Assembly (NCBI GenBank): GCA_963980215.1
Contig: CAXBYZ010000002.1
Span: 1,726 to 65,725 of the forward strand
Length of the DNA: 64,000 nt
Direction of reading: 5' to 3'
Source: an uncultured bacterium
Lineage (GTDB): Bacteria > Patescibacteriota > Microgenomatia > UBA1400 > CG1-02-47-37
Shown here: positions 5,662-27,189 of the stretch, piece by piece
Numbering within the stretch: the first letter of the stretch is position 1
How the letters are laid out: each line of letters begins with the position of its first letter
Program-made: the position numbers and the translations under genes
Notes under the pieces: generated by a model
Told to the model about the DNA's origin: nothing
The model's input: the letters and a program-made list of their open reading frames with translations, nothing else
The model's database searches: none

Positions 5662-6373
5662 ATGCCCACTCAATTTCATGGGTTTTTGGATCAACTCCAT
5701 GATCACGAATCCAATTAGCTATTTCCTCTATTGAAACCTCTTCTTGTGTCAAAACCAAAACTTTAATTTTTTTTCTGCCAACATATTCAATCTTATAATT
5801 TAATGATTCATAGGGTAAAAAATTCACCAAAGGATAATTTTCTTTTTGAAAATTATCTAGTTGTTCCATCCCAATCGATCTCAATTTTTCTTCCCCAGTA
5901 GTAATTTGCCAAACATAAATCAACTGATCACCCTTATATACCATTACCTCATACCATTGACCGGATTTTAATATCTCAAGAGGATAAAAACTCACACTCA
6001 TCTCTCCCTTATTTATCAATGTTTCTCCCAAAATCACCGGATTTAATTGAATATTCATCTTATCTAAATCAATTAATTGATCAAACATCACTCGAATCAC
6101 ATCCAATTTTCTGTTAACTGTCTCATCAGCACTCGGTTCAGTTCTCATAATTTTTACGCTCTCGCCTCTTTTAATAGCCACCTGATCACTTAATATTTTC
6201 CCTAACTCTTCTTCCCTCAACACATCATTAAGTCTAAGCCCAAACATCGATTTCATCTCCCCTTTACTAACCATTTCTTGCTGTCGTTTAACCACCACTC
6301 CACCCACTACCAACAATAAACAACCAATACTAATCCCACCAATAACTAACAAAAATTTATAATCAAGTTTCAT
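5654..6373 (-). CDS. Membrane-anchored hypothetical protein
   Basis: One N-terminal TM helix (FLLVIGGISIGCLLLVVGGVVV) followed by a soluble domain. No motifs recognised. Confidence 0.35.
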   Translation of the reverse strand: MKLDYKFLLVIGGISIGCLLLVVGGVVVKRQQEMVSKGEMKSMFGLRLNDVLREEELGKILSDQVAIKRGESVKIMRTEPSADETVNRKLDVIRVMFDQLIDLDKMNIQLNPVILGETLINKGEMSVSFYPLEILKSGQWYEVMVYKGDQLIYVWQITTGEEKLRSIGMEQLDNFQKENYPLVNFLPYESLNYKIEYVGRKKIKVLVLTQEEVSIEEIANWIRDHGVDPKTHEIEWAFN

Positions 6374-6957
6374 GAACCTCCCAAAGGCCTCACGACAAAG
6401 TAGCTTAAATCTGCAGTCGGCACACTTGGTAAAGTAATCGTCCTACAATCACCTGCTCCACTATTTTGATAATTAAAGTCACATATGCGTACAAAATAAT
6501 CTCCATTTGACGTATTAATTGGATTACCGACCACCACCATAATATGCCCTTCATCTCTAGGAACCCCATCGTTTTTCGGTACTATATATTCCCCATCTAC
6601 CCATCCATTACTTCCATTCAATACAATTCCATCACCATCTTGAATTCCAATAGTGCTTGCTCCATAACTATTTATCAAATCACCTTTTTGACACCAATTA
6701 TTACTTCCAGGGTTACATACTGACGGTAAAGCACCAGCAATATTCCCATAAGTATCTACGCCAAAATGGCCAAAGCTTGGATTAATAGTAATCGCACCAT
6801 CCAAACACCTATAAACGATCTCTCCATTTTTGATATAAAAATCATAAGAAGTAGGATAATCTTCTCCAAGGCATAATTCCATATCACGATCAACCTGATT
6901 ATCATTAATCACCTCAATACTTTCCACACATAAATTAACCGCATCCACAATAATCAT
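6370..6957 (-). CDS. CHAP-like (Cys/His amidase-peptidase) domain protein, possibly the C-terminal part of the upstream ORF
   Basis: NNWCQKGD (candidate catalytic Cys) and DEGHIMVVVG (a GHVxxV-type His motif), typical of CHAP domains. It overlaps 6935-7807 by 23 nt in another frame. Confidence 0.35.
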   Translation of the reverse strand: MIIVDAVNLCVESIEVINDNQVDRDMELCLGEDYPTSYDFYIKNGEIVYRCLDGAITINPSFGHFGVDTYGNIAGALPSVCNPGSNNWCQKGDLINSYGASTIGIQDGDGIVLNGSNGWVDGEYIVPKNDGVPRDEGHIMVVVGNPINTSNGDYFVRICDFNYQNSGAGDCRTITLPSVPTADLSYFVVRPLGGS

Positions 6958-7807
6958 CTATCCAAAAACTACCTCCCAAACTTAATCTATCATCCACACT
7001 CTCCGTCACTGAAGTATTCTGATTAAATCCATTCAAAAATGATCCATAATTATCTCCATACACCCCCCACTCATCCCCTTGAACTTCATCAACCTCAATT
7101 ACAATATCAGCATAATCATGATACGAATCTCTCAATTCTTGTGGCCCATAAGTCACTTGACAATTAGGACAATAAACCCACGAACCAGTTGGCCCATCAC
7201 ATTTATATGTAGTATATCTTTCTCCAGCTCTCAACGGCCCAAACGCCACTACAGGATTACCCGATGCGTCTTTACTCACAGCATTACCATTCTTATCACG
7301 ACAAGGTATATCTCGCTCGTTATTTCCACTACTGCTATTTCCAGTAGTAACACCAGGAATTTGCCCTTGTTCTGCTACCGCATTTCCCCCTACATTATTC
7401 AAGTACTCCTCTCTCTCAGTTATAAATTCACCACTCAAACTATCATTCATTGCTCCGTCGTGATTTCCTTGCCATAAGTCAGCCAACCCCTTCCACCTAT
7501 CCGCATCTGCTTGCTTACCCTCCTTTAGTGTAATTTCTTGTTCTTTCAAAGGTTTCCTATTTTTCTCAAAAGCCTGCTTTACTTCTTCAGTTATTCGTTT
7601 TGCATCCTCTCGCCTCTGTTCTAACAAATTACTCTTATCAATTTTATCTTGTGTCTCTCTATCCAAGCCCGCTCTTCCATCTATATTAAATATCTTCGGC
7701 ACCTCTCCCTGATTACTCACCACATACTTACTCACCGGCACCATCAACGCCACTACCGCTACAATCACTAAAATCGGTAAATGAACAAAACCACGGCAAG
7801 CCTTCAT
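6935..7807 (-). CDS. Membrane-anchored coiled-coil protein (possible N-terminal portion of the CHAP protein)
   Basis: A signal/TM (LPILVIVAVVALMVPV), a charged coiled-coil segment and a Cys-rich C-terminus. Confidence 0.35.
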   Translation of the reverse strand: MKACRGFVHLPILVIVAVVALMVPVSKYVVSNQGEVPKIFNIDGRAGLDRETQDKIDKSNLLEQRREDAKRITEEVKQAFEKNRKPLKEQEITLKEGKQADADRWKGLADLWQGNHDGAMNDSLSGEFITEREEYLNNVGGNAVAEQGQIPGVTTGNSSSGNNERDIPCRDKNGNAVSKDASGNPVVAFGPLRAGERYTTYKCDGPTGSWVYCPNCQVTYGPQELRDSYHDYADIVIEVDEVQGDEWGVYGDNYGSFLNGFNQNTSVTESVDDRLSLGGSFWIDDYCGCG

Positions 7808-7861
7808 AGTTATATCCTATCAATACTTAGTCGAATTCTCAATGATATAATACTTCCAAAC

Positions 7862-7933
7862 GCTCTCATAGTTTAATGGATAAAACAGAGGTTTCCTAAA
7901 CCTCCGATGCAAGTTCGATTCTTGCTGGGGGCA
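7862..7933 (+). tRNA. tRNA-Arg (anticodon CCT)
   Basis: Hand-folded. Acceptor GCTCTCA/TGGGGGC (two G-U pairs), D-arm GTTT-AATGGATA-AAAC, anticodon arm GAGGT-TTCCTAA-ACCTC, a 4-nt variable loop, T-arm GCAAG-TTCGATT-CTTGC. No encoded CCA. Confidence 0.55.
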
Positions 7934-7938
7934 CATCT

Positions 7939-7963
7939 ACATGAAGGTTCGTAACCTTCATGT
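7939..7963. repeat. 25-bp perfect hairpin element ACATGAAGGTTCGTAACCTTCATGT in the spacer between the two tRNAs
   Basis: An identical 25-mer recurs at 24160-24184. Confidence 0.8.
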
Positions 7964-7968
7964 ACCAT

Positions 7969-8041
7969 CGGGGTGTAGCGCAGTTGGTAGCGCGCGTCGT
8001 TCGGGACGGCGAGGTCGTGAGTTCAAATCTCACCACCCCGA
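7969..8041 (+). tRNA. tRNA-Pro (anticodon CGG)
   Basis: Acceptor CGGGGTG/CACCCCG, D-arm GCGC-AGTTGGTA-GCGC, anticodon arm CGTCG-TTCGGGA-CGGCG, T-arm GTGAG-TTCAAAT-CTCAC, discriminator A. Confidence 0.75.
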
Positions 8042-8046
8042 CTTTA

Positions 8047-8694
8047 TTATTCTCTTGAAGCAATATCTGCCAAACTTGTCTTAATTATCTCATCATCTAC
8101 TTTAAACCCCGGCATAAACTCTACCGTTTCTGAATAATCCACGTCCTTAAAATATGACAACTGGCTTCGTAGTAAAACTTCATCAAATAAACCCCCTCCA
8201 AAAATATCTACAGTCTTCTTACTAATCTCTTCTAGAGAAAACTGTTTCAATAAAAAATACACATCCACATAATCTTTCCACTTGGCTCTTTGACCCAAAG
8301 CAAATGCCTTCATACAACCAATCGATAACACATCAGGCATCTTAATCACTTCATCCCAATTCTCATTAACCGGCACCGGATATTTATACTGATACCAAGT
8401 CATTTTTACTCCATGAGTCATCACCGTTAACTGATTTTTCTGATTCACAAACGTTTCTTCAACTGGAAAATACTTGCCAACTTTTCCAATAATTTGATTA
8501 TTATCAAAGTCTATTTTTGTAAACAAATCAAAGTCTATCGACCTCCTATGACCGATCTGCAAAGCCAGGGCTGTTCCTCCCACCAAGTAATAATCATCTT
8601 TAAACTCCCTCACCAAATCAATTAAATCTTTCTGCTCTTTAGATAAAATATCAAGCTCAAACATATCTATTAAAATAGTTGCCAAATAAAGCAA
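8047..8694 (-). CDS. AbiEii/AbiGii-family nucleotidyltransferase (type IV TA toxin-like)
   Basis: YYLVGGTALALQIGHRRSIDFDLFT matches the GGTAL...R.S.D.D nucleotidyltransferase signature of AbiEii. Confidence 0.55.
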   Translation of the reverse strand: MLYLATILIDMFELDILSKEQKDLIDLVREFKDDYYLVGGTALALQIGHRRSIDFDLFTKIDFDNNQIIGKVGKYFPVEETFVNQKNQLTVMTHGVKMTWYQYKYPVPVNENWDEVIKMPDVLSIGCMKAFALGQRAKWKDYVDVYFLLKQFSLEEISKKTVDIFGGGLFDEVLLRSQLSYFKDVDYSETVEFMPGFKVDDEIIKTSLADIASRE

Positions 8695-8914
8695 TCCTTT
8701 CCGGCCGTAAATTCACTCTTCGTTTTTCTTGCGTCATATACAAAAACAGTTTCTTTATTTTTTTTAAACCCATCTTTTTCTTCAACCACAAAAAATCTTT
8801 CCACCGACCATAATTCAACACCCCTTCCACCACTGCTTCATCATCTAGTTTTGTCACATCACTCACCCACCACCATTTTTGCTTATTCTCAGTCAACCAG
8901 TTATTCAACTGCAT
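8657..8914 (-). CDS. Small hypothetical protein upstream of the AbiEii-like gene (possible cognate partner)
   Basis: The start is trimmed to the internal ATG (MQLNNWL...) so that it does not overlap ndk. No motif recognised. Confidence 0.25.
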   Translation of the reverse strand: MQLNNWLTENKQKWWWVSDVTKLDDEAVVEGVLNYGRWKDFLWLKKKMGLKKIKKLFLYMTQEKRRVNLRPERIALFGNYFNRYV

Positions 8915-8916
8915 TT

Positions 8917-9387
8917 TTATTCCCGCTCTTCCTTCGAATAAATCAAGCAATCCGAAGCACTCTCCCACTCTATAATCTCACTATCTTTAAAGACCAGTTT
9001 TCTCTCTTTTTCAGCCGACTCCACTCCATCCGAGGCATGAATCAAGTTTAACTGTTGGCTCATAGAAAAATCTCCCCGAATCGAACCTGCCTCAGCCTCA
9101 CGACCATGAGTCGTACCGACTAGTTTTCTAACCGTATCAATCGCTCCCACCCCACTCCAAACCATGGCCACAATCGGTGAAGACATCATAAATCCCTTCA
9201 AGTCACTAAAAAATCCTTTGTCTTTATGATGAGCATACCACTCATCCAAAATCTCGTCAGTTAACAACATCATCTTCAACCCAGACAACTTCAAACCCTT
9301 CTTCTCAAACCGATTAATAATCTCCCCCAACAAACCCCTCTGTAATCCATCCGGTTTTAGTAAAATGACTGAGTATTCAAACTTCAT
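8917..9387 (-). CDS. ndk: Nucleoside diphosphate kinase
   Basis: ILLKPDGLQRGL, the NLIHASD active-site His motif and GTTHGREAEAGSIRGDF. Confidence 0.85.
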   Translation of the reverse strand: MKFEYSVILLKPDGLQRGLLGEIINRFEKKGLKLSGLKMMLLTDEILDEWYAHHKDKGFFSDLKGFMMSSPIVAMVWSGVGAIDTVRKLVGTTHGREAEAGSIRGDFSMSQQLNLIHASDGVESAEKERKLVFKDSEIIEWESASDCLIYSKEERE

Positions 9388-9401
9388 ACCATCATTATAA
9401 C

Positions 9402-10679
9402 CTACCCCACCAATTTTTCAAATCGAGCCTTGTCTTTAAAATCCCCCAAGACCGTCAAATTTAACTTATTTTCTTCAAATACCCTCTTAGCAGTTTTACT
9501 AATCCCGGCCACACTCACCTCGTCAATCTTGGCTTTAATTTTTTCCACTGTCCTAATCTCGTTCTCCATCAATAAATTCTCACCAAACAAGTTAGCCACC
9601 GACTGACTATCCTCCAAAGATAAATCAATCCTCCCTTTCAAGTACTCTTTGGCTCGCTTCAACTCCACTTCACTCACCGTCTCAATTTTTTGATACTCTC
9701 CCCGCACCACCTTGATAGCCTCATCCACTCGCTTGGCATCACAACCGGCTTGAGTTACCAAGTAGCCGGTATCAAGCAGTAAATCTATACTGGAGCGAAC
9801 ATAGTAGACCAAGCCCCGCTTTTCTCGAATTTCATCCCACAACCTTGAGCTAGTGTTGCCTCCCAAAATAGTGTTTAACATCATCAAGTTATACCGATCG
9901 GGGTCAGTTGACTTAAACGTCTCCATTCCCAAGCAAAAATGGGCTTGCTGTATTGGTTTTTTCACTAATTTAACTCTCGCCTTTTCCTGTTTCACCACCA
10001 CTTGATTAGGTTTATCCGTAAACTTAATTTTCCCCTTCCGGTTGGATACAAATACCTCCTCAATCTGTTTTTCGGCCGTTTCCAAGCCACCTCCAGCCAA
10101 GACCAAAACCATATTAGCCGGTTGATACCAATAATCCAAGTACTTCACAAACTCCTTGTGTCCCAAAGATTTTATATTCTCAGCCGGTCCAATCACCAAT
10201 TGACCTAACTGGGTCGCACTATATACTTGTGATACAAAAGACTGAGCCACATTCCTCATCGGGTTATCCTCATACATCTTGATCTCCTCCAAAATCACTC
10301 CCCGCTCTTTTTCCAACTCATCCGCCGGCAGTAGCGGTTCAAACACCGCTTGATGCAAAAACTCCAAGCCCAACTCTAAGTGTTTCTTACCAATCTTCAT
10401 CCAAAAAGCAGTCATTTCTTGAGAGGTAAAAGCATTAAAGACGCCACCAACCGACTCAATCACCCGATTCATCTCCATTGGTGTTGGCCACTTCTTAGTT
10501 CCCTTAAACACCATGTGCTCCAAAAAATGTGAGATCCCGTTTATCTTGGCCGACTCATCCCTACTCCCCACTCGCACCATCACCATCGCCGTCACCGACT
10601 CGGTGGCCATCGGTATTTTTACCACCGTCAAACCATTTGCTAAAACCTGATTTTTTACTTGAAAACTCATAATAACCAC
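9402..10679 (-). CDS. M16-family zinc peptidase (pitrilysin/insulinase-like)
   Basis: The inverted zinc motif HFLEH plus a downstream E (GISHFLEHMVFKGT), with a ~420-aa two-domain length. Confidence 0.8.
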   Translation of the reverse strand: MVIMSFQVKNQVLANGLTVVKIPMATESVTAMVMVRVGSRDESAKINGISHFLEHMVFKGTKKWPTPMEMNRVIESVGGVFNAFTSQEMTAFWMKIGKKHLELGLEFLHQAVFEPLLPADELEKERGVILEEIKMYEDNPMRNVAQSFVSQVYSATQLGQLVIGPAENIKSLGHKEFVKYLDYWYQPANMVLVLAGGGLETAEKQIEEVFVSNRKGKIKFTDKPNQVVVKQEKARVKLVKKPIQQAHFCLGMETFKSTDPDRYNLMMLNTILGGNTSSRLWDEIREKRGLVYYVRSSIDLLLDTGYLVTQAGCDAKRVDEAIKVVRGEYQKIETVSEVELKRAKEYLKGRIDLSLEDSQSVANLFGENLLMENEIRTVEKIKAKIDEVSVAGISKTAKRVFEENKLNLTVLGDFKDKARFEKLVG

Positions 10680-11008
10680 CTATATAAAGGTGTCACCTGT
10701 ATTCTACCACTTTTACTTTTTATTACATCTTCTTCTGCCTCGGTAACAATTATCTTCCTCACTCCCCTAATCTCTTTTGAAAGCTCCACCAATGACCTTA
10801 CTTCTCGATTTCTAATTACTTCATTATCCAAACTCAAGCTAGCTTGAATCGCCAGCTTTTTCTCCGGTACATAAAAATCCACTTCCAAATTATTTTTAGT
10901 TTGATAATAATATACTTGTTTATACTGCTGTCTCAACCTTAAATAAACCAAGTTCTCCAACAACCGACCGGAATTAGCCGAAAATGAAAATCCCACCGAC
11001 TTTGCCAA
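10667..11008 (-). pseudogene. 3' fragment of a DUF4143-type AAA ATPase gene (C-terminal domain only)
   Basis: LENLVYLRL...EVDFYV...IQASLS match the C-terminal DUF4143 region of the full-length paralogs at 43932-45110 and 54857-56017. The P-loop half is missing. Confidence 0.45.
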
Positions 11009-11169
11009 ACCAGTATCAATCGAGTAAACCTTGCTTTATTTTAGTAGCCAAACTGCCACAATCTTGATTCAACCTCTAGTTGGCGCAGAAACTCCACCTA
11101 CAATTGGAGTAGATCACTCCAATGCTTTGACTCTCAAGAAAACAACTACTAACCTGAATTTTGAGTCAT

Positions 11170-11565
11170 TTACGCTACTATTGCTCCAACGGGTAGAGGA
11201 TTAGCAGAAAAGTCATAATCATCCACTATCAGTTGAGCTAATCTCTCCCACATTCCCACCTCCGCCATCACATCAGGGTCAATATGTAAATCAAGCAAAT
11301 TAGTTGGATAAGTATGATATTTTTGGTGTAAATATTTTAAGGTTTGTTCATAATAGCTATCTAAACTTCCACCTTGAACAACAAACACCTTGGTAAACTC
11401 CCGTACTGCCACTGCCCGTAAAAAGTCCCCTGCACCTAATTTTTCAAATAATCCCCATTGATGAAGTGAATCCCAAAACTCCCGAGACACCCCCCTACCC
11501 TTAGGGTCTGGAGCCTTTATCCCACTTATTAGTGACCCATCTGGTCTGCAAAATATTTCTCTCAT
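11170..11565 (-). CDS. Hypothetical protein (ORFan operon, gene 4)
   Basis: A long ORF in an operon-like array; no motif recognised. Confidence 0.4.
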   Translation of the reverse strand: MREIFCRPDGSLISGIKAPDPKGRGVSREFWDSLHQWGLFEKLGAGDFLRAVAVREFTKVFVVQGGSLDSYYEQTLKYLHQKYHTYPTNLLDLHIDPDVMAEVGMWERLAQLIVDDYDFSANPLPVGAIVA

Positions 11566-11569
11566 ACAA

Positions 11570-12436
11570 CTACACCACCACCAAACTCTTTTTAAACTTC
11601 AATACTTCTTCTATTAAATCTTTTTCTTTCCAAGTTGTTACAACCCTTAATGGATCCAAACACCAAGTAATTAGTTTCAAGTGTTTATTCATTAACGCAC
11701 CTCCTGTTTCTGAAGGTACTTTTACTTTCCTAGCCAATCTTTTTCCAAAGCTTTTTCCATAATTTACAGCCAACAATCCATTTTGATTAGCAGTCACTTC
11801 CAACAATACTTCATTCCGATGACCGTACCACTCCTTAGAGGGATTCAATGAATATTCCTCACTTTGTGTATCAACCAATCTTACACCTATGCCTTTATCA
11901 CTCTCAACAAATACATATCTAGATTCAGGCACCCTATTAGGGTTTTGCCCATGAACTCTATCATCTCCATTCAACCAACCACCACGTAAACTATACTCCC
12001 CATTTTCTGGATGCGAAAACAACAAAAAACTCGCTTGTACCCCCTTCCAACTCCATGACTTCATCAGAGTATCTTGAATCTCAAGACCCTCTCTAGCCAT
12101 ATGCACCTGAACACCAACCTGAGAGTACTGAAACACCCCTTGCCCATCCATAAATACTTGTACTTGAGTATCAATACTTGCATTTTTATCGTCAAGCAAT
12201 AGCGTTACAGCGTGGTGATCCGCAGAGAGTCTCTTATACTGTATTCTCCACACACTCTCATTCTCTCTCCCTTCACTTTCTCCAACTTCTAAATAAAAAT
12301 TTGGATCATCCATATTTTTGGGGAAAAATAGTTCAAGTCTTGGTGACTGTCGACTACCAACACATCCCTCATAGGAGGAAATATCAACAGTGGGAGCTAT
12401 GCTTCTCTCAGTTGACATGACCCCCCTCAAACCCAT
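11570..12436 (-). CDS. Hypothetical protein (ORFan operon, gene 3)
   Basis: A long ORF, tightly spaced with its neighbours; no motif recognised. Confidence 0.4.
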   Translation of the reverse strand: MGLRGVMSTERSIAPTVDISSYEGCVGSRQSPRLELFFPKNMDDPNFYLEVGESEGRENESVWRIQYKRLSADHHAVTLLLDDKNASIDTQVQVFMDGQGVFQYSQVGVQVHMAREGLEIQDTLMKSWSWKGVQASFLLFSHPENGEYSLRGGWLNGDDRVHGQNPNRVPESRYVFVESDKGIGVRLVDTQSEEYSLNPSKEWYGHRNEVLLEVTANQNGLLAVNYGKSFGKRLARKVKVPSETGGALMNKHLKLITWCLDPLRVVTTWKEKDLIEEVLKFKKSLVVV

Positions 12437-13208
12437 CTTTAAACAAACATTCCGGTATAGTATATCCAGGAGTAAACCATATCCACTTTTCTATATTTTC
12501 TCTATCAAAAGTTACCGTGCTTCCGGAGTTATATTTTTTTCCTGCTAAATTCATTAAATTCCCCAACAAAGCTATAGGTGTTTTAGCAAGAATTCCAATT
12601 GAACTAACTAATTCTTTCATCATCGTTAACATTCCTTCTCTACCTCCATCCAAGACTAATTTTCCAGAGCAAGAGGTCACTGGATATTGAAATATTCCAT
12701 CATTTTCAATCTTAAACGGATTCAAACTAAAACTCTCCCCAAACTGTTCTTGATATCTTGCCAAAATTGCCCCACAACAATCATCCATAGCATCATTCAC
12801 ACCCACAAATTCACTATCTTTTTCCCACTTAACTACTTCTTTATATGAAAGACTCATCTTCCAACCATATCTGTCCACTGTAAACTGCAGTGGCACTCTA
12901 TATTTACACATCTCTTCATGCTCCCTAATCTCAGTAGAGCTCATATTTGACCTAAACACCTCACTCTCCCATCTCCACTCACCCTTCGAATTCACTACAC
13001 TCGTAATCCCGGGAACGTCTAGTACCAACCCATGGTCTTTCAAAACAGTAAATATAGGTAAAAATAATTTATCAAGACCTAATCTCTCAAATTCATGTTT
13101 ACGTGTATCTCCAAACGCAACAATCGTTGAATCTGGATCTATACGTAAAGCAAGTGGAGAACCACCGGATGATGAGATAGTAATCGTTTTTTCATGTTCA
13201 TTAACCAT
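12408..13208 (-). CDS. Hypothetical protein (ORFan operon, gene 2)
   Basis: A long ORF that overlaps the downstream gene by 29 nt. Confidence 0.4.
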   Translation of the reverse strand: MVNEHEKTITISSSGGSPLALRIDPDSTIVAFGDTRKHEFERLGLDKLFLPIFTVLKDHGLVLDVPGITSVVNSKGEWRWESEVFRSNMSSTEIREHEEMCKYRVPLQFTVDRYGWKMSLSYKEVVKWEKDSEFVGVNDAMDDCCGAILARYQEQFGESFSLNPFKIENDGIFQYPVTSCSGKLVLDGGREGMLTMMKELVSSIGILAKTPIALLGNLMNLAGKKYNSGSTVTFDRENIEKWIWFTPGYTIPECLFKDGFEGGHVN

Positions 13209-13219
13209 ACCACCACTCC

Positions 13220-13801
13220 TTATACTGCTACCAAATTTATAAACGCTTTAGTTACGGCACTCGCAAATCTAAGGCTATCGTGCACATACCATGGAGTTAA
13301 CGCCAGCGCTTGCTTATCATAACCTTCACCAAGTAATGAGTTTCTTTCAAATCTCAACCCATTTGCGGTCCGTCTTGGTTCCATCAGTAAGCCCCACCTC
13401 AATGATCTTGCTCTTGAAGCATTTAGTGTTTCAAGTTTGGAATGATTATTATCACCCGAAAGCAATATCATTGGTACCCAAACACTGTGCATATCATTAT
13501 TAACCAAACTCCACTGCGCCCTCACCCCATCACCTATTTGATGAATTTCTGAATAAGATTTTATTGATCCACCCATCTCTCTCCTCAATTTAAAATAAAT
13601 ATCAAATCCACTTGTTTCACCTCCAGTTTGTTCAAAAGTCATTTGATCTTGAGTCAAACCTTCTCTCGACAACCTTTGGCCCACCACCACTATTCCAGTG
13701 TGTAAATTTGCTCCAGGAGCTAACACTGTCCGTAATCCCGGAACTTCCCCCCATGGGGCATCATTGTTCAATAAATCTATTGCTTGCTCTGGTTCCCTCA
13801 T
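13220..13801 (-). CDS. Hypothetical protein (ORFan operon, gene 1)
   Basis: A long ORF at the head of a four-gene co-directional array. Confidence 0.4.
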   Translation of the reverse strand: MREPEQAIDLLNNDAPWGEVPGLRTVLAPGANLHTGIVVVGQRLSREGLTQDQMTFEQTGGETSGFDIYFKLRREMGGSIKSYSEIHQIGDGVRAQWSLVNNDMHSVWVPMILLSGDNNHSKLETLNASRARSLRWGLLMEPRRTANGLRFERNSLLGEGYDKQALALTPWYVHDSLRFASAVTKAFINLVAV

Positions 13802-13972
13802 ACGCTCGGAATTCTACAATAACTTCCAATAGTTGTCAACTATAAGCCTATATTGACAGATCGAGTTCCAAATGATATATTCCACCAACTATAACTTATA
13901 GTAAATAAATGTATGATAATAGAAGATAATTGACTTCTTTTTTCAATAAATAGTAAAAAAAATTAAAAAATT

Positions 13973-16690
13973 ATGTCACCACAGGAAAGAGCAGTAGTCA
14001 GGCTAGCAAAACTTCCTATAAGACTTGCCCTATCTGTTGTAGATACTCCAAATGCTGTGCTCACTAGAGACCTAGAAGAGAGTCTCTCTTTCGGAACCAG
14101 GCCAGGTCTTACAAATTTTCTCCTAAACACCTTTAATGACCGACTACAAACAGAGGTAAATTGGAAACTAAATCATCCTCAATTATATTACCCTCTAGCA
14201 AATAAACCAGAAGAAGCCGTTGTCTTTGAGCTTTATGATACTCACGCTCAGCTTGCTACCAACTTTTTAGCTACCGCAGGCAGAACTCTACCAAGTTCAG
14301 AAACATCTAAACATAACGCCCAACTTTTAACTAGACTGGCTATTAATTTAATTATTCAGTCAGAAAATTGTTATAAACCCAGCACCAGCACTGAAATATT
14401 TGAAGATAAAAGACTAGCCTCCATCACTACCAGAGTTGCCCAAACTCCTCTCGATCCAAACACCACCAAAGCTCTTGTAGAAGTCATAAAAACCTGCTTC
14501 AACAACAAAAGCCCAAATATTGACCAACAAGGTAAACCCATCCATCCACTCCTAAAAATCAAAACTGGCAGCAGAGTCGACCCAGAGACGAATAAAGTAA
14601 AAGAGGTAAATCTAACCCTGGAAACGGCTGAATATCTTTTAGGGCTTCTCACCGACCTCAAATTTAGTCGACCTCCAAAAGAAGTAGTTCCCTTAATACA
14701 ATCCCTTGCTTTTGGTATCGAAAACTGGACCAGGTTTGCTATTAAAAATCCAGAAAAATTTGCTCTAGAAGTTATTAGAGATATGACTAATACACATCCT
14801 TTTGGGAGTTACATTTATACCAAAACAGCCTGTGGACCAGATACTCAAGTTAGTCATACAAAATCAGAGAATCGCGCTGATGACCTAGGAACTTTACCAG
14901 AAAACTGGATGAAAAATGGTAATTTAACCATGGGTAAACAAAGTCCATATCCAGAATATACCACCGATACTTTTACTCATTTCCGTCCAAAACAAGCCAC
15001 CCCAACCAGAAAATTAGAACCAATCGGAGGCGAAACCCCAACCCCATTAAGAATTAACGATAGGATAGCATCAACTGCAATCAGACATTTCTCTAAATTT
15101 CATCCTGGTAGATGGATTGAAAATTTTTCTAGATTTCCTTGGTACTCTGAAAAATATAAAACTATGGGCGGTGAAGTCGCCTATGTTGATGACCGTCATA
15201 GTTATCAAGAATTAGCTAATGCCCAAGCTGAAATTGTAAAAAAACGAGTCGATCAACTCAAAATTATTATTGATAAAAGTAACTCACCAGACTCCAAACT
15301 CACTGCTACTCACGCCTTAGCTTGTTATCTGGTCGATTATCAAGATGACGAAAGAGGAATTAGTCATAGTTTAAGAAGTGCTCTAGACAAACACATTGCC
15401 CCCTTACTGGCACAAATAATTATCAATAGTCAACCTAATGATGCTATCTGGCCCATGCTTCAAAACACAGTGCCACTCATGCCGTTTAGTAGTATTGACA
15501 CCATGCTTCAACACATGGAGCAAAATATGGGCACCACTCAACACTGCTTTAACTGGGCCGCCTTTTGCTACATTGCCCACGGAGATATTGCTCAAAGTGG
15601 TTTTAATGGAATACACGTTAGCGATGAAACCAGAAAAGCCATTTTCTATAGTGCTCAACGAGTTATTTTTGACAAACTTCCAGATCAAAAAAGTGCCGGA
15701 GTTAACTTTGTTCACCCTATTATGGCTTTTGCCAACCCCAAACAATATCCTCATTTTCAAGAATCTATTGAAGTTGCAAGTTTAAATGTCCACGCTCTTG
15801 CCCCCAGAATAACTCAATCATGGAAAGAGTATGTAGCTTATGATTTACGAGGCCACGATACTAACCCTCCGTTTACAGCAGAAAAAATCAAACCATTACT
15901 CAATCTTCTCCCAGATCCAGAATCTGTTAGAGAACTCATGCAACAACTTCAAAAGATTAAAGATCCAGCAAGTGAACTAGACTCTATCCTCCCTGGCCTT
16001 GCTCAGGAACTAAACGAATCAAGACAATCCTTAATCCAAGCTCTTGACATTCTTGCCCCCACAGACAAAATAGTAGATTTCGATGAATTACAAGATTTTT
16101 TAAATAAAGAAAGCCTTAATCCGCAAGATATTGAAGATCTCCAAGCAAGAATAGTAGCTAAAATTTTTGATAAACCTGGTGACGCCGCCATCATCATTGC
16201 CTTAAAGGAATCAGGACTCCTTCCCCTTCTTACCAAAAATGAAGCAATAAAAGCTGCTAAAATTACTGCTCTTAGAGGGGTTGTCTCAAGTACAGCTAAA
16301 AATCTCTCTGATAGTGCCATGGAAGCTATGCTCACCAAAATTGAAACTCAACTAGAACCAATCAAAGCCACTCTCGCTCTTCAGCAAACTGCTCTTGATA
16401 TCACCAAAAGTATCAGAGAAGGGTTTTCTGATATTATGAAAACTCAAATTAATTTAAAACTCAAATATGTTAATCATCTCCAAAATCTGGTCAACTCCCA
16501 ACATGAAAACACAGAGTTGCAAAGGGTTAGAAAAACAGTTTATAACAACTGCGGTAAAATTAGAAAAGAGTTAAAATGTAACATAAGTCAATTATTACCT
16601 AATCTTACCCTTGAAGAGCTTGTCGAAATCCTTAACCTTCCCCCAGAAATACAAGAAATTTTACTACAAACAAATACAACTACTACCTAA
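13973..16690 (+). CDS. Large hypothetical cytoplasmic protein (905 aa)
   Basis: An uninterrupted 2.7-kb ORF with no TM or signal peptide and a helical, repeat-like C-terminal third. No catalytic motif recognised. Confidence 0.45.
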   Translation: MSPQERAVVRLAKLPIRLALSVVDTPNAVLTRDLEESLSFGTRPGLTNFLLNTFNDRLQTEVNWKLNHPQLYYPLANKPEEAVVFELYDTHAQLATNFLATAGRTLPSSETSKHNAQLLTRLAINLIIQSENCYKPSTSTEIFEDKRLASITTRVAQTPLDPNTTKALVEVIKTCFNNKSPNIDQQGKPIHPLLKIKTGSRVDPETNKVKEVNLTLETAEYLLGLLTDLKFSRPPKEVVPLIQSLAFGIENWTRFAIKNPEKFALEVIRDMTNTHPFGSYIYTKTACGPDTQVSHTKSENRADDLGTLPENWMKNGNLTMGKQSPYPEYTTDTFTHFRPKQATPTRKLEPIGGETPTPLRINDRIASTAIRHFSKFHPGRWIENFSRFPWYSEKYKTMGGEVAYVDDRHSYQELANAQAEIVKKRVDQLKIIIDKSNSPDSKLTATHALACYLVDYQDDERGISHSLRSALDKHIAPLLAQIIINSQPNDAIWPMLQNTVPLMPFSSIDTMLQHMEQNMGTTQHCFNWAAFCYIAHGDIAQSGFNGIHVSDETRKAIFYSAQRVIFDKLPDQKSAGVNFVHPIMAFANPKQYPHFQESIEVASLNVHALAPRITQSWKEYVAYDLRGHDTNPPFTAEKIKPLLNLLPDPESVRELMQQLQKIKDPASELDSILPGLAQELNESRQSLIQALDILAPTDKIVDFDELQDFLNKESLNPQDIEDLQARIVAKIFDKPGDAAIIIALKESGLLPLLTKNEAIKAAKITALRGVVSSTAKNLSDSAMEAMLTKIETQLEPIKATLALQQTALDITKSIREGFSDIMKTQINLKLKYVNHLQNLVNSQHENTELQRVRKTVYNNCGKIRKELKCNISQLLPNLTLEELVEILNLPPEIQEILLQTNTTTT

Positions 16691-16705
16691 AAACCCTAAG
16701 TTAAT

Positions 16706-17068
16706 ATGAATCATGAAACCACATCACCCATCAAGCGACTAGACTCAAATTCCCCACCATCTTCTCCGCCCAACATCATTGATTTCTATCAACATATTTT
16801 TTTTCAAAAAATTATTCTTCCATTTCTTCTCAATCCAATAATGAAAGCACGAGCCAAAGAAGAAGAACATTATTTTGGAGAAATAGTAACCGAAAAAACT
16901 CGTAAATTTTTTGGATTACCAGTTAATCCTTACGGAAATAGAGCATGGAGGGAAGTAAAACAAGAAAAATATCTTGTTCGTGATGAGCAAGGACGTATAA
17001 TGTCTCTAGCTGAGTATCGAGAAAAATACCCCAATAGTAACCAACACCCTGTACAAAACATATATTAA
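16706..17068 (+). CDS. Hypothetical protein
   Basis: An ORF immediately downstream of the 905-aa gene. Confidence 0.3.
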   Translation: MNHETTSPIKRLDSNSPPSSPPNIIDFYQHIFFQKIILPFLLNPIMKARAKEEEHYFGEIVTEKTRKFFGLPVNPYGNRAWREVKQEKYLVRDEQGRIMSLAEYREKYPNSNQHPVQNIY

Positions 17069-17086
17069 ATCAATCATTACCAAACT

Positions 17087-18337
17087 CTAACTCAATATCT
17101 CCCTTGCCACCTCACTTTCCCTCATCTCCCCCAGTAATTTCTGCGCTTCAAGATACATCCCTGCATTATATCCACTATTCTCCCAATCACGACTACAGAC
17201 AACATCCGTGCTCACAGTGCTTGACCTATCCAAATTATATGGCCGTAAACCCACCCGATTAATCTTCACTCTCCGAATAACCGGCACCATCGTGCCTCTC
17301 TCGGTCAACTGCAACCCCAAAGCCCGACCATCTAGCTTAGATAAATCATTTTCCTGTATCTCTGCCAAAGTCCTCGCCGTCAACCAATCAACTAACCTTA
17401 CTACTCGATCTACATAACTATTATCACCTGTCTGACGGACTGGCCAACCCGGCATAAAATTCCATACCTCCCATTTATATCCATGACTATCATCCAAAGT
17501 CACCCTCAACTTATCCGGCCTAATAGAAAAAACTACACCCAAACCATGCATCACCGCACTTACCCGCAAACCACAACACTGAGTAATTTGACTACTCTCT
17601 TTATTCCGCAGATTACTAGTCCAAGTTAAGTTATCTCTATGATATTTGCGCAGATTATCAGCCATTGCTAGCAACATTCCCCCCATTTCCATTTCCTTCC
17701 AAGCCAGAGTCATCTCTTGCGGACCAGGGAACTGCACCAGCCATTGACTCCGTTCCTGAGGATCCAAACTATCAAATGATAAAGTACCGCTAAACGGATA
17801 ACCAGCCCTGATCTTAGCTATTACTTTCTCCATCATTAAGTTATATGCAAACTGTCCGTCTACTTCTTTCTCAAGGATCGTCTGATTACTGTTATATCCA
17901 ATCGCCAACCTCCTATCATCCAAAGTCGACCTCACCCAATTCAACCCCTTCTCTGATATTGTAGGAGTTACTATCCTAAAGCTATTATCTAAATATCTAA
18001 TATATTCCCCATAATATGCGTCATCATCTTTTTTATAAATCAACGGCACACCACCTTCGTCAGACTTAACCGGCCTTGATGCCCACCACAAATCCGTCAA
18101 CCTAGACAAATGACTTATCCCCACCCTCATCGCCATCCTCAAATGCTCCTGTGTTACTTTCTCTCCTTTCATTAATGCCTCAGCATAACCTGGATGATCC
18201 ATCGCCCAACCAGCCGCCATCAGCTTACCCAAAGAAAGTTTAGGATATGGTGACTGCCTTTCCGGCCTACCATCCACCACACTATATCCACTCACGAAAT
18301 CTGGCATTAAAGATTTCTGCCTTGCGCGTTCTGTCAT
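17087..18337 (-). CDS. Hypothetical protein (416 aa)
   Basis: A long ORF convergent with the 905-aa gene. Confidence 0.4.
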   Translation of the reverse strand: MTERARQKSLMPDFVSGYSVVDGRPERQSPYPKLSLGKLMAAGWAMDHPGYAEALMKGEKVTQEHLRMAMRVGISHLSRLTDLWWASRPVKSDEGGVPLIYKKDDDAYYGEYIRYLDNSFRIVTPTISEKGLNWVRSTLDDRRLAIGYNSNQTILEKEVDGQFAYNLMMEKVIAKIRAGYPFSGTLSFDSLDPQERSQWLVQFPGPQEMTLAWKEMEMGGMLLAMADNLRKYHRDNLTWTSNLRNKESSQITQCCGLRVSAVMHGLGVVFSIRPDKLRVTLDDSHGYKWEVWNFMPGWPVRQTGDNSYVDRVVRLVDWLTARTLAEIQENDLSKLDGRALGLQLTERGTMVPVIRRVKINRVGLRPYNLDRSSTVSTDVVCSRDWENSGYNAGMYLEAQKLLGEMRESEVAREILS

Positions 18338-18437
18338 ATATACACCACAATGCGAGCAGGCTTATATTTACTATATACAACTTTACACTCTTACTCAAAC
18401 TACCGTATAATCTCCTCACTGCCCTATACTATAATAT

Positions 18438-19667
18438 ATGACACCAAAATCCTGGCAGCTAAAACTTTTCTACCTCATCTTATTTTTAATTCCTTCCAAT
18501 CTCGCCAAACACTTCATCCTCCCTTCATCCTACGTCTCCGGCATCTTAGTTGACTACCTCATCCCTACTATTTATCTCACTGATATTCTTATCCTCACCC
18601 TCCTTGTTTGTAACAAAGGACTGTCCTTTGTTACAGTTGTTAAATCAAGCTTTTTTGTTTTCTTGCTCTGCTTACTCCCCTCAATCATTTTCGCCTCCTC
18701 CCCAATTCCAGCTATCTACAAGTACTTAAAACTCATAGAGCTAGTCTTATTTTCCCTCTGGGTCAAACAAAATATTAATCTAAAAAAACATCTACAACCC
18801 ATTATTACTATCCTTACCCTCTCTACCCTCTTTCAATCTCTCCTAGCCTTAACTCAATGGTTCAAACAATCATCGCTTTTTGGTTACTATTTTTTGGGCG
18901 AACAACCCTTTACCTCAGCTTCAGTTGGTATTGATAAAATCACTTGGTTCACTGGCGCTATCAAAATCCCCCCTATGGGCACCTTCCCTCACCCCAATGT
19001 TTTAGGAGGCTTTTTAGCCGTAGTTTTACCGCTTATCCTCTATAAGGGTCTTAATTCCAACACAAGGTTACGAACCTTGTGTTACACCTCATTTTTGCTC
19101 GGTCTCCTCACCCTTTTTCTCACCTTCTCTCTCTCCGCTTGGTTAGCCTTTCTCTTAATCGGCCTTCCCCTCACCCTAAAGAAAATATTTAAGGTTCGGA
19201 ACCTTAAATTTATCTTTATCTACTCAGGGCTTTTCTTAATCCTCTTTTCTTTTGCTACCAAATTTACCTTTCTTGCTCCCCAAAGCTCCTTTAGCCGTCG
19301 TTCTCAACTAACCCAGATTGCTCTCAAATCTTTTACCCACTCACCCATTGTTGGTGTTGGCCTTAATAACTTTACCATTAACATGGAACACTACGGCTAC
19401 ATCACTTCCACTACTCGTTTTCTCCAACCCGTCCATAACATCTTTCTTTTAATCCTCTCCGAAACCGGCCTCATCGGCCTTGCTGGCTTTCTTTATCTTT
19501 TAGGTTCAAAACTTCAGCAATTGCGACTCCGACAAAAGTCGGAGCAAGTTTTGAACCTAAAAATATTCTTAATCCCTCTCCTCACCCTCCTCTTCCTCGG
19601 CCTCTTCGATCACTACCCTTTTACCATCCAACAAAGTTTATTGCTACTCTTTACCCTAATTAACTAA
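18438..19667 (+). CDS. Polytopic membrane protein, O-antigen ligase/polymerase (Wzy)-like
   Basis: About 10 predicted TM helices and a central loop, lying in a glycan locus. It carries four in-frame palindromic elements (18610, 19063, 19185, 19503). Confidence 0.4.
   Translation: MTPKSWQLKLFYLILFLIPSNLAKHFILPSSYVSGILVDYLIPTIYLTDILILTLLVCNKGLSFVTVVKSSFFVFLLCLLPSIIFASSPIPAIYKYLKLIELVLFSLWVKQNINLKKHLQPIITILTLSTLFQSLLALTQWFKQSSLFGYYFLGEQPFTSASVGIDKITWFTGAIKIPPMGTFPHPNVLGGFLAVVLPLILYKGLNSNTRLRTLCYTSFLLGLLTLFLTFSLSAWLAFLLIGLPLTLKKIFKVRNLKFIFIYSGLFLILFSFATKFTFLAPQSSFSRRSQLTQIALKSFTHSPIVGVGLNNFTINMEHYGYITSTTRFLQPVHNIFLLILSETGLIGLAGFLYLLGSKLQQLRLRQKSEQVLNLKIFLIPLLTLLFLGLFDHYPFTIQQSLLLLFTLIN
18610..18634. 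repeat. REP copy (GTAACAAAGGACTGTCCTTTGTTAC) in frame inside the Wzy-like gene
   Basis: Reverse-complement-centre version of the RAYT-flanking REP; it encodes CNKGLSFVT. Confidence 0.8.
19503..19557. repeat. 55-bp composite hairpin element inside the Wzy-like gene
   Basis: A copy of the 4769-4823 element with about 6 substitutions. Confidence 0.8.
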
Positions 19668-26487: not shown

Positions 26488-26508
26488 CAAAGGACAGTCC
26501 TTTGTTAC
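26484..26508. repeat. REP, 25-bp perfect palindrome GTAACAAAGGACAGTCCTTTGTTAC (5' flank of the RAYT gene)
   Basis: It is identical to the copy at 27165-27189. It contains the stop codon of the upstream gene and ends 9 nt before the RAYT start codon. Confidence 0.85.
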
Positions 26509-26517
26509 AATAATAAT

Positions 26518-27168: not shown

Positions 27169-27189
27169 CAAAGGACAGTCCTTTGTTAC
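27165..27189. repeat. REP, 25-bp palindrome (3' flank of the RAYT gene)
   Basis: Identical to 26484-26508; overlaps the RAYT stop codon. Confidence 0.85.

What the first reader, a model, noticed from the sequence alone, without database searches (positions are those of the whole stretch)
10667..18337. Block of seven ORFans (including a compact four-gene operon and a 905-aa protein) next to a truncated DUF4143 ATPase gene: candidate acquired island or uncharacterised system
The four - strand genes at 13801-11170 are tightly packed or overlapping and have no recognisable motifs. A divergent promoter region (13802-13972, carrying a TTGACA-17-TATATT and an inverted repeat CTGTCAA/TTGACAG) separates them from a 905-aa and a 120-aa gene on the + strand. 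A convergent 416-aa gene closes the block. Immediately outside the block lies only the C-terminal third of a DUF4143 AAA-ATPase gene (10667-11008), which is consistent with an insertion that truncated it. The surrounding window is rich in TA and defence-type genes (AbiE pairs, VapBC, NYN, DUF4143 ATPases), the usual neighbourhood for novel defence or conflict systems. Function cannot be assigned from sequence alone.
Basis: inference. Interest (0 to 1): 0.55.

Follow-up and report, generated by a model that had tools for sequence, protein, structure and literature searches.

The report
Hypervariable ORFan gene slot, CPR bacterium
The block fills a gene slot that changes content from species to species in a family of tiny marine candidate-phyla-radiation bacteria; it holds a dead ATPase remnant, an inactivated nuclease-fold gene and a four-gene operon of unknown proteins, the middle of which is the one fast-evolving spot in an otherwise almost clonal population.

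Summary
Seven intact ORFs at the stated coordinates have no hit in Pfam, NCBIfam, PADLOC, PHROGs or PDB. There is a packed four-gene minus-strand operon, back-to-back near-consensus promoters, and the decayed C-terminal third of a DUF4143 ATPase gene.

The organism is a marine oxygen-minimum-zone Patescibacterium (Microgenomates, Beckwithbacteria-like). In seven relatives the backbone ArgRS–Wzy–[slot]–M16 peptidase–NDK is conserved, but the slot content differs every time. One relative has it empty (38 bp). The block is therefore variable cargo, and the DUF4143 remnant is part of it.

It is not one unit. Only g905 and g416 recur, in the closest relative. The four-gene operon is unique to this species.

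Composition is native, and I found no integrase, att repeats or phage or plasmid similarity.

g416 models confidently as a RecB/Cas4/ExoVIII-type PD-(D/E)xK fold, but three of its four catalytic residues are substituted.

Across 15 near-identical population contigs, almost all SNPs fall in g131, g288 and the C-terminal part of g266 (39 nonsynonymous : 7 synonymous, plus an in-frame indel).

My best reading is a flexible conflict-type island whose operon is under diversifying or relaxed selection. The biochemical function is unresolved. Interest is moderate.

The parts
10680..18437 (.). Variable slot between the start of the M16 peptidase gene and the start of the Wzy_C-like gene. Everything inside it is lineage-specific cargo.
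   Evidence: The backbone is conserved in L010, L012, L015, L017, L021, L022 and L023, but slot content differs in each. In L022 the slot is 38 bp.
10667..11040 (-). Decayed 3' remnant of a DUF4143/AAA_14-type ATPase gene (about the last 110-125 codons). Its stop overlaps the M16 start.
   Evidence: Pfam DUF4143 E = 5e-8 over profile positions 104-147 of 160. PADLOC PDC-S01 E = 7.5e-22 over positions 301-407 of 412. An in-frame stop interrupts upstream DUF4143-like sequence. It is only distantly related to the two intact paralogues in the window.
11170..11565 (-). g131, the last gene of the operon. Soluble. 12 alleles in its 90% cluster (W37E/G, G46V, R55Q, V126D).
11570..12418 (-). g288 (282 aa from the start at 12418). 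Beta-rich and soluble. It is the main microdiversity hot spot (residues 15-116 and 188-201 in the numbering of the 288-aa ORF that starts at 12436).
   Evidence: 25 nonsynonymous: 6 synonymous SNP sites plus an in-frame 3-nt indel at 12344-12346. 14 mosaic alleles. The AF2 model is unusable, pLDDT 30.
12408..13208 (-). g266. It has a strong AAGGAG ribosome-binding site. Its C-terminal part (residues 129-245) is variable.
   Evidence: 11 nonsynonymous: 1 synonymous SNP sites. 17 cluster members. RBS.
13220..13801 (-). g193, the first gene of the operon. Nearly invariant in the population. Probably translated from a leaderless mRNA.
   Evidence: The -10 box TAGAAT ends 9 nt before the ATG and there is no SD sequence. 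Only 1 SNP site.
13811..13881 (.). Back-to-back divergent sigma-70-type promoters: - strand TTGACA-17-TAGAAT (13839-13811) and + strand TTGACA-17-TGnTATATT (13853-13881).
   Evidence: 11 of 12 positions each; sequence
13973..16690 (+). g905, a soluble 905-aa protein with no recognisable domain. Its only homologue is a 5'-truncated copy in L010.
   Evidence: 57% identity over residues 231-898 to L010. In L010 the homology runs upstream of the first possible start codon and ends at an in-frame stop.
16706..17068 (+). g120, a doubtful small gene. It is frameshift-polymorphic (120 aa or 75 aa) and absent from L010.
   Evidence: A 1-nt deletion at 16797 in 6 of the 15 contigs compared.
17087..18337 (-). 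g416: an N-terminal helical domain plus a C-terminal PD-(D/E)xK (RecB/Cas4/ExoVIII-like) fold in which the catalytic residues are substituted.
   Evidence: AF2 pLDDT 77, pTM 0.80. Foldseek top hits are AddB, AdnA, Exo5 and Cas4 in PDB and PD-(D/E)XK/RecB/ExoVIII phage proteins in BFVD, down to E = 6e-5.

Best explanation
SHOWN:

- The 7.8 kb between the M16 peptidase and Wzy-like genes is a recombination-prone 'flexible genome' slot in a family of marine Microgenomates. Each lineage holds different genes of unknown function there.
- In this species the slot is a composite of at least three layers:
  (a) a dead 3' stump of a DUF4143 ATPase gene;
  (b) an older pair, g905 and g416, shared with the closest relative. 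g416 is a RecB/Cas4-type PD-(D/E)xK nuclease fold that has lost three of four catalytic residues;
  (c) a species-specific four-gene operon, g193-g266-g288-g131.
- All seven proteins lack transmembrane or signal-like segments.
- The stretch from g131 through g288 into the C-terminal part of g266 is the one place in more than 20 kb where the otherwise near-clonal population is polymorphic. The changes there are overwhelmingly amino-acid-changing, and the reading frames stay intact.

INFERRED:

- The operon is driven by a near-consensus promoter that probably yields a leaderless mRNA.
- The slot collects and discards intracellular conflict genes (anti-phage, anti-mobile-element or toxin/antidote type).
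- The operon is the currently active cargo. g266, g288 and g131 would be its specificity-determining parts, evolving under diversifying or frequency-dependent selection.
- g416, the DUF4143 stump and g120 would be decaying or repurposed leftovers of earlier cargo.
- Cassette exchange happens by illegitimate recombination that clips resident genes: the DUF4143 gene here, and g905 in L010.
For: - Synteny: the slot is empty in L022, and holds unrelated ORFs in L012, L015, L017, L021 and L023. L010 keeps g905 (57% identity) and g416 (35%), while its flanking NDK and M16 are 94% and 80% identical.
- Clipped residents: the DUF4143 remnant here and the 5'-truncated g905 in L010.
- g416 fold and motif loss.
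- Microdiversity: 43 of about 57 SNP sites in 8.6 kb lie in 11720-12969. The counts are 39 nonsynonymous: 7 synonymous in g131/g288/g266. The earlier count of 38:6 against 4:10 in flanking genes gives Fisher p = 9e-5, and pN/pS = 1.67.
- Allele counts: 14 to 17 alleles for g288 and g266, against 2 to 5 for neighbouring genes.
- Assembly behaviour: many contigs break inside g266 or g288.
- Soluble proteins. Promoters.
- Neighbourhood: AbiE pairs, NYN and intact DUF4143 ATPases elsewhere in the window.
Against: - No operon protein matches any PADLOC, Pfam, PHROG, NCBIfam or PDB family, so the conflict role is inference from context and evolutionary pattern only.
- pN/pS is not significantly above 1 (binomial p = 0.16). 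Relaxed constraint plus an imported divergent allele could give the same picture.
- The mosaic haplotypes could be chimeras of metagenome assembly.
- No slot cargo in any relative matches a known defence family either.
- The only large-database search for the four operon proteins failed technically. Distant homologues with known roles may therefore exist.
Confidence: 0.5

Rival explanations
1. The seven genes form one recently acquired, co-functional defence system, and its insertion truncated a resident DUF4143 ATPase gene.
For: The arrangement is compact with divergent promoters. A truncated ATPase sits at the edge. Defence-type genes occur elsewhere in the window.
Against: g905 and g416 occur without the operon in L010, and the operon occurs nowhere else. 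Distant g416 relatives are solitary genes in unrelated contexts. The DUF4143 gene is absent from all relatives' backbones. Composition is native. g416 is catalytically degenerate and g120 is frameshift-polymorphic.
Confidence: 0.08
2. The block is a degraded prophage or other integrated mobile element.
For: The g416 fold resembles phage RecB/ExoVIII-type exonucleases. Cargo turnover is rapid. A Y1 transposase gene lies 8 kb away.
Against: There is no integrase, capsid, terminase or other PHROG hit. tblastn finds nothing in 50,697 phage genomes or 72,556 plasmids, and there is no match in IMG/VR. There are no flanking direct repeats. GC and strand bias are native.
Confidence: 0.07
3. The operon proteins are cell-cell interaction factors, i.e. 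effectors or adhesion-related proteins used by an episymbiotic CPR cell on its host. They would diversify under host pressure rather than phage pressure.
For: CPR bacteria are commonly episymbionts (general knowledge). The microdiversity is nonsynonymous. The slot lies next to a Wzy_C-like envelope gene. The neighbouring TsaD–NDK slot does hold proteins with N-terminal hydrophobic anchors.
Against: None of the seven proteins has a signal peptide or transmembrane-like segment. No secretion-system genes are adjacent.
Confidence: 0.17
4. The cargo is functionless or decaying: young de novo or fast-drifting ORFs under relaxed constraint. The SNP cluster would then be a neutral recombination import from a diverged strain.
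For: pN/pS is about 1.7 and not significantly different from 1. Decay is visible nearby: the DUF4143 stump, the degenerate g416 motifs, the g120 frameshift and the truncated g905 in L010. No family match exists anywhere.
Against: All alleles keep the reading frames open and the only indel is in frame. There are a near-consensus promoter and good ribosome-binding sites. Codon-position structure is typical of real genes. SNP density is far higher in the hot spot than in the flanks: 43 SNP sites in 1.25 kb against mostly zero per 250-bp bin elsewhere. Simple drift does not explain that, and g193 and g416 show almost no variation.
Confidence: 0.18

Closest known systems
Flexible genomic islands or replacement hot spots of marine bacteria (e.g. 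Alteromonas, Pelagibacter HVRs); recalled from general knowledge
   Same: A fixed position in a conserved backbone whose content is swapped between close lineages. It lies next to an envelope-polysaccharide gene (Wzy-like). Metagenome assemblies break there.
   Different: The cargo here is small, soluble, domain-less proteins rather than glycosyltransferases or O-antigen genes. The host is a CPR bacterium with a tiny genome. No tRNA or integrase anchors this slot.
Defence islands (clusters of anti-phage systems with rapid turnover)
   Same: Rapid gain and loss, truncated leftovers, nuclease-fold and DUF4143-ATPase (PADLOC candidate PDC-S01) genes, Abi/TA genes nearby, and diversifying evolution.
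   Different: No intact known defence system is present. The only PADLOC hit is a dead fragment. Slot cargo in seven relatives also has no PADLOC hit.
RecB/AddB/AdnA nuclease domain, Cas4, Exo5, RecE/ExoVIII-type PD-(D/E)xK nucleases
   Same: The C-terminal domain of g416 has this fold. Its distant relatives carry E…D…D-x-K in the expected order.
   Different: g416 has G, D, N, M at those four positions. There is no Fe-S cysteine cluster and no helicase partner. A family-specific helical domain of about 240 aa lies at the N terminus. Sequence profiles (Pfam) do not recognise it.
DUF4143/AAA_14 ATPases (PF13173 + PF13635)
   Same: The remnant at 10667-11040 matches the C-terminal part of the family. 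Two intact paralogues lie at 43932-45110 and 54857-56017.
   Different: The AAA_14 domain and most of DUF4143 are missing, and in-frame stops are present, so it is a pseudogene remnant.
Diversity-generating retroelements and polymorphic toxin/immunity loci (other sources of localised protein hypervariability)
   Same: Localised, mostly nonsynonymous variation that spans a gene junction (g266 C-terminus and g288 N-terminus).
   Different: There is no reverse transcriptase and no template repeat in 64 kb. All base types are mutated and the variation spreads over about 1.3 kb. There are no toxin or immunity domains. All combinations of g266 and g288 haplotypes are seen, so nothing indicates cognate pairing.

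Membership tests
PD-(D/E)xK nuclease superfamily (RecB/Cas4/ExoVIII branch), for g416 | Core alpha-beta-beta-beta-alpha-beta fold | tested here: met
   AF2 model pLDDT 77, pTM 0.80. The top 11 PDB Foldseek hits are AddB, AdnA, Exo5, Cas4 and a putative exonuclease (E = 0.02-0.4, probability up to 0.96). BFVD hits reach E = 6e-5 at probability 1.00 and are annotated PD-(D/E)XK, RecB or ExoVIII.
PD-(D/E)xK nuclease superfamily (RecB/Cas4/ExoVIII branch), for g416 | Catalytic E … D … (D/E)-x-K residues | tested here: not met
   g416 has G256, D275, N293 and M295. The L010 homologue has G, D, D, R. The seven distant family members have E, D, D, K. g416 is therefore a fold member but probably not an active nuclease.
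PD-(D/E)xK nuclease superfamily (RecB/Cas4/ExoVIII branch), for g416 | Recognition by a curated sequence profile | tested here: not met
   Pfam finds only PDDEXK_13 at E = 0.15, in 1 of 9 family members. The PDB profile search finds nothing.
DUF4143 AAA ATPase (PF13173 + PF13635; PADLOC PDC-S01) | C-terminal DUF4143 domain | tested here: met
   Pfam E = 5e-8 (partial, profile positions 104-147 of 160). PADLOC PDC-S01 E = 7.5e-22 (positions 301-407 of 412).
DUF4143 AAA ATPase (PF13173 + PF13635; PADLOC PDC-S01) | N-terminal AAA_14 P-loop domain in an intact ORF | tested here: not met
   Only about 160 bp lie upstream before g131, and they contain in-frame stops. No AAA remnant is found on the other side of the block.
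Known anti-phage defence systems (PADLOC-DB 2.0) | Match of any component to a defence-system HMM | tested here: not met
   There are no hits for g131, g288, g266, g193, g905, g120 or g416 (the best is E = 0.03, noise). There are none for slot cargo of relatives.
Genomic island / flexible hot spot | Presence/absence or replacement at a fixed backbone position among relatives | tested here: met
   Seven relatives were examined. One has the slot empty (L022), one shares part of the cargo (L010) and five hold unrelated cargo.
Genomic island / flexible hot spot | Atypical composition, flanking repeats, tRNA or integrase (classical horizontally acquired island) | tested here: not met
   GC is 0.38-0.40, against a window mean of about 0.41. 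The third-codon-position G/C bias equals that of resident genes. There are no flanking repeats. The nearest tRNAs are 2.6 kb outside the slot.
Prophage / integrated mobile element | Phage or plasmid hallmark genes, or similarity to known elements | tested here: not met
   PHROGs; tblastn against phages and plasmids; IMG/VR peptide scans.
Diversity-generating retroelement target | Reverse transcriptase, a template repeat, and adenine-specific substitutions | tested here: not met
   No repeat of the variable region exists anywhere in the window. Substitutions involve all bases. No reverse-transcriptase match was seen among the window proteins scanned, but not every ORF in the window was scanned.

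The most novel reading that the evidence does not exclude
The leaderless four-gene operon g193-g266-g288-g131 is a previously undescribed intracellular conflict system of marine Microgenomates (phage defence, or a toxin/antidote-like module). Its recognition surfaces would be the C-terminus of g266, the N-terminal half of g288, and g131, kept polymorphic by frequency-dependent selection. It would be an arms race visible in real time within a single natural CPR population.
Probability: 0.22. Interest if true: 0.7.

Novelty: new member of a known kind. Interest (0 to 1): 0.42.

Why it matters
CPR bacteria make up a large share of bacterial diversity, and roughly half of their genes have no known function. 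This locus shows where such unknown genes sit (fixed replacement slots in a conserved backbone) and how they turn over (cassette swaps that clip their neighbours).

It also singles out three proteins on which a natural population is visibly diversifying. That gives a concrete, small target for structural and heterologous-expression work on CPR–phage or CPR–host conflict. The target is four genes in 2.6 kb with their own promoter.

If the operon turns out to be only drifting junk, the locus is still a clean example of gene birth and decay in a streamlined genome.

Tried and rejected
1. I concatenated the four operon proteins into one query for the large homology search. It returned nothing, not even the proteins themselves, although they are in the collection. 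This was a technical failure, so 'no homologues' cannot be claimed for g131, g288, g266 or g193 beyond the libraries listed.
2. Scans of GTDB genomes and JGI metagenomes with the M16 peptidase returned only one same-population contig. A GTDB scan with the g416 family alignment found nothing.
3. AF2 on g288 with its alleles gave pLDDT 30, which is unusable.
5. DGR hypothesis rejected: there is no template repeat and the mutation spectrum is mixed.
6. The weak similarity of g131 to ComEC (E = 1e-4 in a tiny database) is dismissed. It aligns a soluble protein to a membrane protein over 59 aa.
7. The g266 hit to the staphopain pro-region (Pfam E = 0.06, PDB E = 1.1) is not significant.
8. Cognate co-variation of g266 and g288 haplotypes: all four combinations occur, so there is no support. 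Assembly chimeras also make this test unreliable.
9. Related cargo between slots of different relatives: only L017's 157-aa and L023's 147-aa proteins are weakly similar.


Full report
**1. What is there**

The ORF list confirms the seven ORFs:

| Gene | Coordinates | Strand |
|---|---|---|
| g131 | 11170-11565 | - |
| g288 | 11570-12436 | - |
| g266 | 12408-13208 | - |
| g193 | 13220-13801 | - |
| g905 | 13973-16690 | + |
| g120 | 16706-17068 | + |
| g416 | 17087-18337 | - |

- A 113-codon ORF at 10667-11008 (- strand) matches only the C-terminal part of DUF4143. In Pfam it covers profile positions 104-147 of 160. In PADLOC PDC-S01 it covers positions 301-407 of 412 with E = 7.5e-22.
- Translating upstream of that ORF shows further DUF4143-like sequence (…VYSIDTGLA…) interrupted by in-frame stops. 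It is a decayed 3' stump, and its stop overlaps the start of the M16 peptidase gene.
- None of the seven proteins hits Pfam, PADLOC, PHROGs or NCBIfam. g905, g266 and g193 also have no PDB sequence hit.
- The intergenic region 13802-13972 carries two back-to-back promoters, each matching 11 of 12 consensus positions. One is TTGACA-17-TATATT on the + strand (13853-13881, with an extended-10 TG). The other is TTGACA-17-TAGAAT on the - strand (13839-13811).
- The - strand -10 box ends 9 nt before the g193 ATG and there is no SD sequence, so I infer a leaderless transcript. g266 has AAGGAG and g288 has GAGGGG before the start at 12418, both good ribosome-binding sites.

**2. Are they genes?**

- First-position G enrichment and the strong strand-specific third-position bias match resident genes on the same strand. 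Minus-strand genes have G3 of 0.23-0.41 and C3 of 0.03-0.12. Plus-strand genes have G3 of about 0.07.
- g905 and g416 are conserved as proteins in another species.
- The only indel in g288 is in frame.
- g120 is doubtful. Six of the 15 contigs compared carry a 1-nt deletion at 16797 that leaves a 75-aa product.
- Hydropathy shows no transmembrane or signal-like segment in any of the seven. The same method readily detects the Wzy membrane protein and two anchored proteins in the neighbouring slot.

**3. Whose genome**

- Exact copies of g905 occur on 23 or more metagenome contigs, for example from Saanich Inlet at 200 m. These contigs are 99.8% or more identical to the window over up to 22.7 kb.
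- The nearest named relatives of the M16 peptidase are Patescibacteria and Candidatus Beckwithbacteria.
- A 6-kb NCBI contig labelled 'Bdellovibrionales' is probably mis-binned.

**4. Synteny test**

Using M16 homologues as anchors, I fetched loci from seven relatives. All keep the backbone …ArgRS–(0 to 3 small genes)–Wzy_C–[slot]–M16–NDK…

| Locus (M16 identity) | Slot content |
|---|---|
| L022 (61%) | Empty, 38 bp |
| L021 (65%) | One ORF of 123 aa |
| L017 (63%) | 157 + 131 aa |
| L015 (65%) | 100 + 377 aa |
| L012 (69%) | 43 + 408 aa |
| L023 (60%) | 309 + 147 + 190 + 229 aa |
| L010 (80%) | A g416 homologue (35% identity), a g905 homologue (57%), and three unrelated minus-strand ORFs (123/143, 241, 152 aa) |

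- tblastn and all-against-all BLAST find no relative of g131, g288, g266, g193 or g120 in any of these loci. There is almost no relatedness among the other cargoes, and none hits Pfam or PADLOC.
- In L010, homology to g905 starts at residue 231 or thereabouts. It lies upstream of the first possible start codon and is preceded by an in-frame stop. The cassette swap in that lineage therefore clipped the 5' end of g905, just as the DUF4143 gene is clipped here.
- The DUF4143 stump is absent from all relatives, so it is old cargo and not backbone.

**5. Not a classical mobile island**

- GC content (0.38-0.40) and strand bias are native.
- No direct repeats flank the slot.
- No integrase was found.
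- tblastn against 50,697 phages and 72,556 plasmids found nothing significant, and IMG/VR peptide scans found nothing.

**6. g416**

- An exhaustive HMMER search of 1.84 billion representative proteins found nine proteins at E ≤ 0.001: g416's own cluster representative, the L010-type protein, and seven distant proteins of 384-454 aa at about 25% identity.
- Their alignment shows conserved E-x-R, T-R-h-D-E and V-h-D-Y-K motifs.
- With this alignment AF2 gave pLDDT 77 and pTM 0.80.
- Foldseek's best PDB matches are the AddB and AdnA nuclease domains, Exo5, Cas4 SSO0001 and a putative exonuclease. The E-values are weak (0.02-0.4) but the hits are uniform.
- Against BFVD the matches reach E = 6e-5 at probability 1.00. 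Nearly all are annotated PD-(D/E)XK, RecB-family or ExoVIII.
- At the four catalytic columns, the distant members have E, D, D, K. g416 has G, D, N, M, and the L010 protein has G, D, D, R.
- g416 is therefore a nuclease-fold protein that is very probably catalytically dead.
- Two distant relatives sit alone in unrelated neighbourhoods. Nothing ties the family to g905.

**7. Microdiversity hot spot (new observation)**

- I compared 15 independent contigs of the population with the window. About 57 SNP sites fall in 9220-17800, and 43 of them lie in 11720-12969.
- Counts of nonsynonymous: synonymous sites per gene are g131 3:0, g288 25:6, g266 11:1, g193 1:0, g905 4:0, g416 0:0 and M16 2:3.
- Over the wider 22.7 kb, flanking genes give 4 nonsynonymous: 10 synonymous, against 38:6 in the three hot genes. 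Fisher p = 9e-5.
- pN/pS is 1.67. This is not significantly above neutrality (p = 0.16).
- The 90% clusters hold 12, 14 and 17 alleles for g131, g288 and g266, against 2-5 for neighbouring genes. The g288 alleles are mosaics of a few biallelic blocks.
- Many contigs end inside g266 or g288, as expected where strains differ.
- No template repeat exists in the window and all base types are substituted, so a DGR is excluded.
- The mosaics may partly be assembly chimeras. The existence of divergent, frame-preserving alleles does not depend on that.

**8. Interpretation**

Shown:
- The slot is hypervariable.
- The block is composite.
- It contains dead or degenerate leftovers.
- It contains a promoter-equipped operon whose middle is the population's polymorphism hot spot.

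Inferred:
- Soluble proteins that turn over rapidly, sit in a genome neighbourhood rich in Abi, TA, NYN and DUF4143 genes, and show amino-acid-level diversification fit an intracellular conflict role best.
- An episymbiont–host interaction role and plain relaxed constraint remain serious alternatives.
- I could not obtain any fold or family assignment for g193, g266, g288, g131, g905 or g120. The g288 model had pLDDT 30, and the one large homology search for the operon failed technically.

**9. Verdict**

- As a kind of feature, a flexible-genome replacement slot or defence-type island, it is known. Its cargo is unassigned.
- Interest is moderate (0.42). ORFan islands in CPR genomes are expected. 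The sharply localised nonsynonymous microdiversity gives a specific, testable lead.

Noticed in passing
window 1-64000: Extreme strand asymmetry. GC skew is -0.2 to -0.6 in every 1-kb bin regardless of gene orientation. Third codon positions are G-rich and C-poor in minus-strand genes and the reverse in plus-strand genes. This visibly shapes protein composition: plus-strand proteins such as g905 are poor in G-rich codons.
   Followed up: partly
window 4769-4829 (TsaD), 19503-19563 (Wzy), 22516-22573 (ArgRS), and 16 further sites: The palindrome GGTTCSGAACC occurs 19 times against 0.45 expected. Many copies lie in frame inside housekeeping genes, where it reads G-S-E-P on either strand. Relatives carry similar 'GSEL/SSEP/FGTP' insertions at other loop positions of TsaD and Wzy. 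This resembles in-frame palindromic-element insertions such as the Rickettsia palindromic elements. There are none between 7957 and 19065.
   Followed up: partly
window 5654-8968: A second variable slot lies between TsaD and NDK. It holds three ORFans (239, 195 and 290 aa, two with N-terminal hydrophobic anchors), tRNA-Arg(CCT), tRNA-Pro(CGG) and an AbiEii-like pair. Relatives hold different cargo there. The 290-aa protein has homologues in the same slot of L021 and L022. The AbiE pair has a homologous copy about 8 kb beyond M16 in L017, next to PEGA and SdrD_B genes.
   Followed up: partly
window 18592-18635, 26466-26509, 27147-27190, 29115-29159, 31670-31702: Five copies of a perfect-stem palindrome, TGTAACAAAGGACWGTCCTTTGTTACA. 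Several lie at or near the ends of ORFs. It may be a REP-like element or a terminator.
   Followed up: no
window 16797: A 1-nt deletion polymorphism in 6 of the 15 population contigs compared switches g120 between a 120-aa and a 75-aa product.
   Followed up: yes
L010 4107-4430: The g905 homologue in the closest relative is truncated at its 5' end. Homology runs upstream of the first start codon to an in-frame stop, and the region overlaps an unrelated minus-strand ORF.
   Followed up: yes
window 15220-15469: Four nonsynonymous and no synonymous SNP sites cluster in one 250-bp bin of g905, which is otherwise invariant across 2.7 kb.
   Followed up: no
window, start-codon regions listed: Most minus-strand genes examined have G-rich SD-like sequences upstream (NDK, g131, g288, g266). 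None of the plus-strand (G-poor strand) genes examined does (g905, g120, Wzy, g203, g201). Translation-initiation signals may differ by strand in this genome.
   Followed up: no
window 61720-64000: Several direct repeats are spaced about 900 nt apart (families D2, D5, D9, D11). They suggest a large protein with tandem domains of about 300 aa that runs off the end of the window.
   Followed up: no
tool behaviour: A concatenated 878-aa query returned no hit at all, although its parts are cluster representatives in the same collection. Negative results from that call should be ignored.
   Followed up: yes
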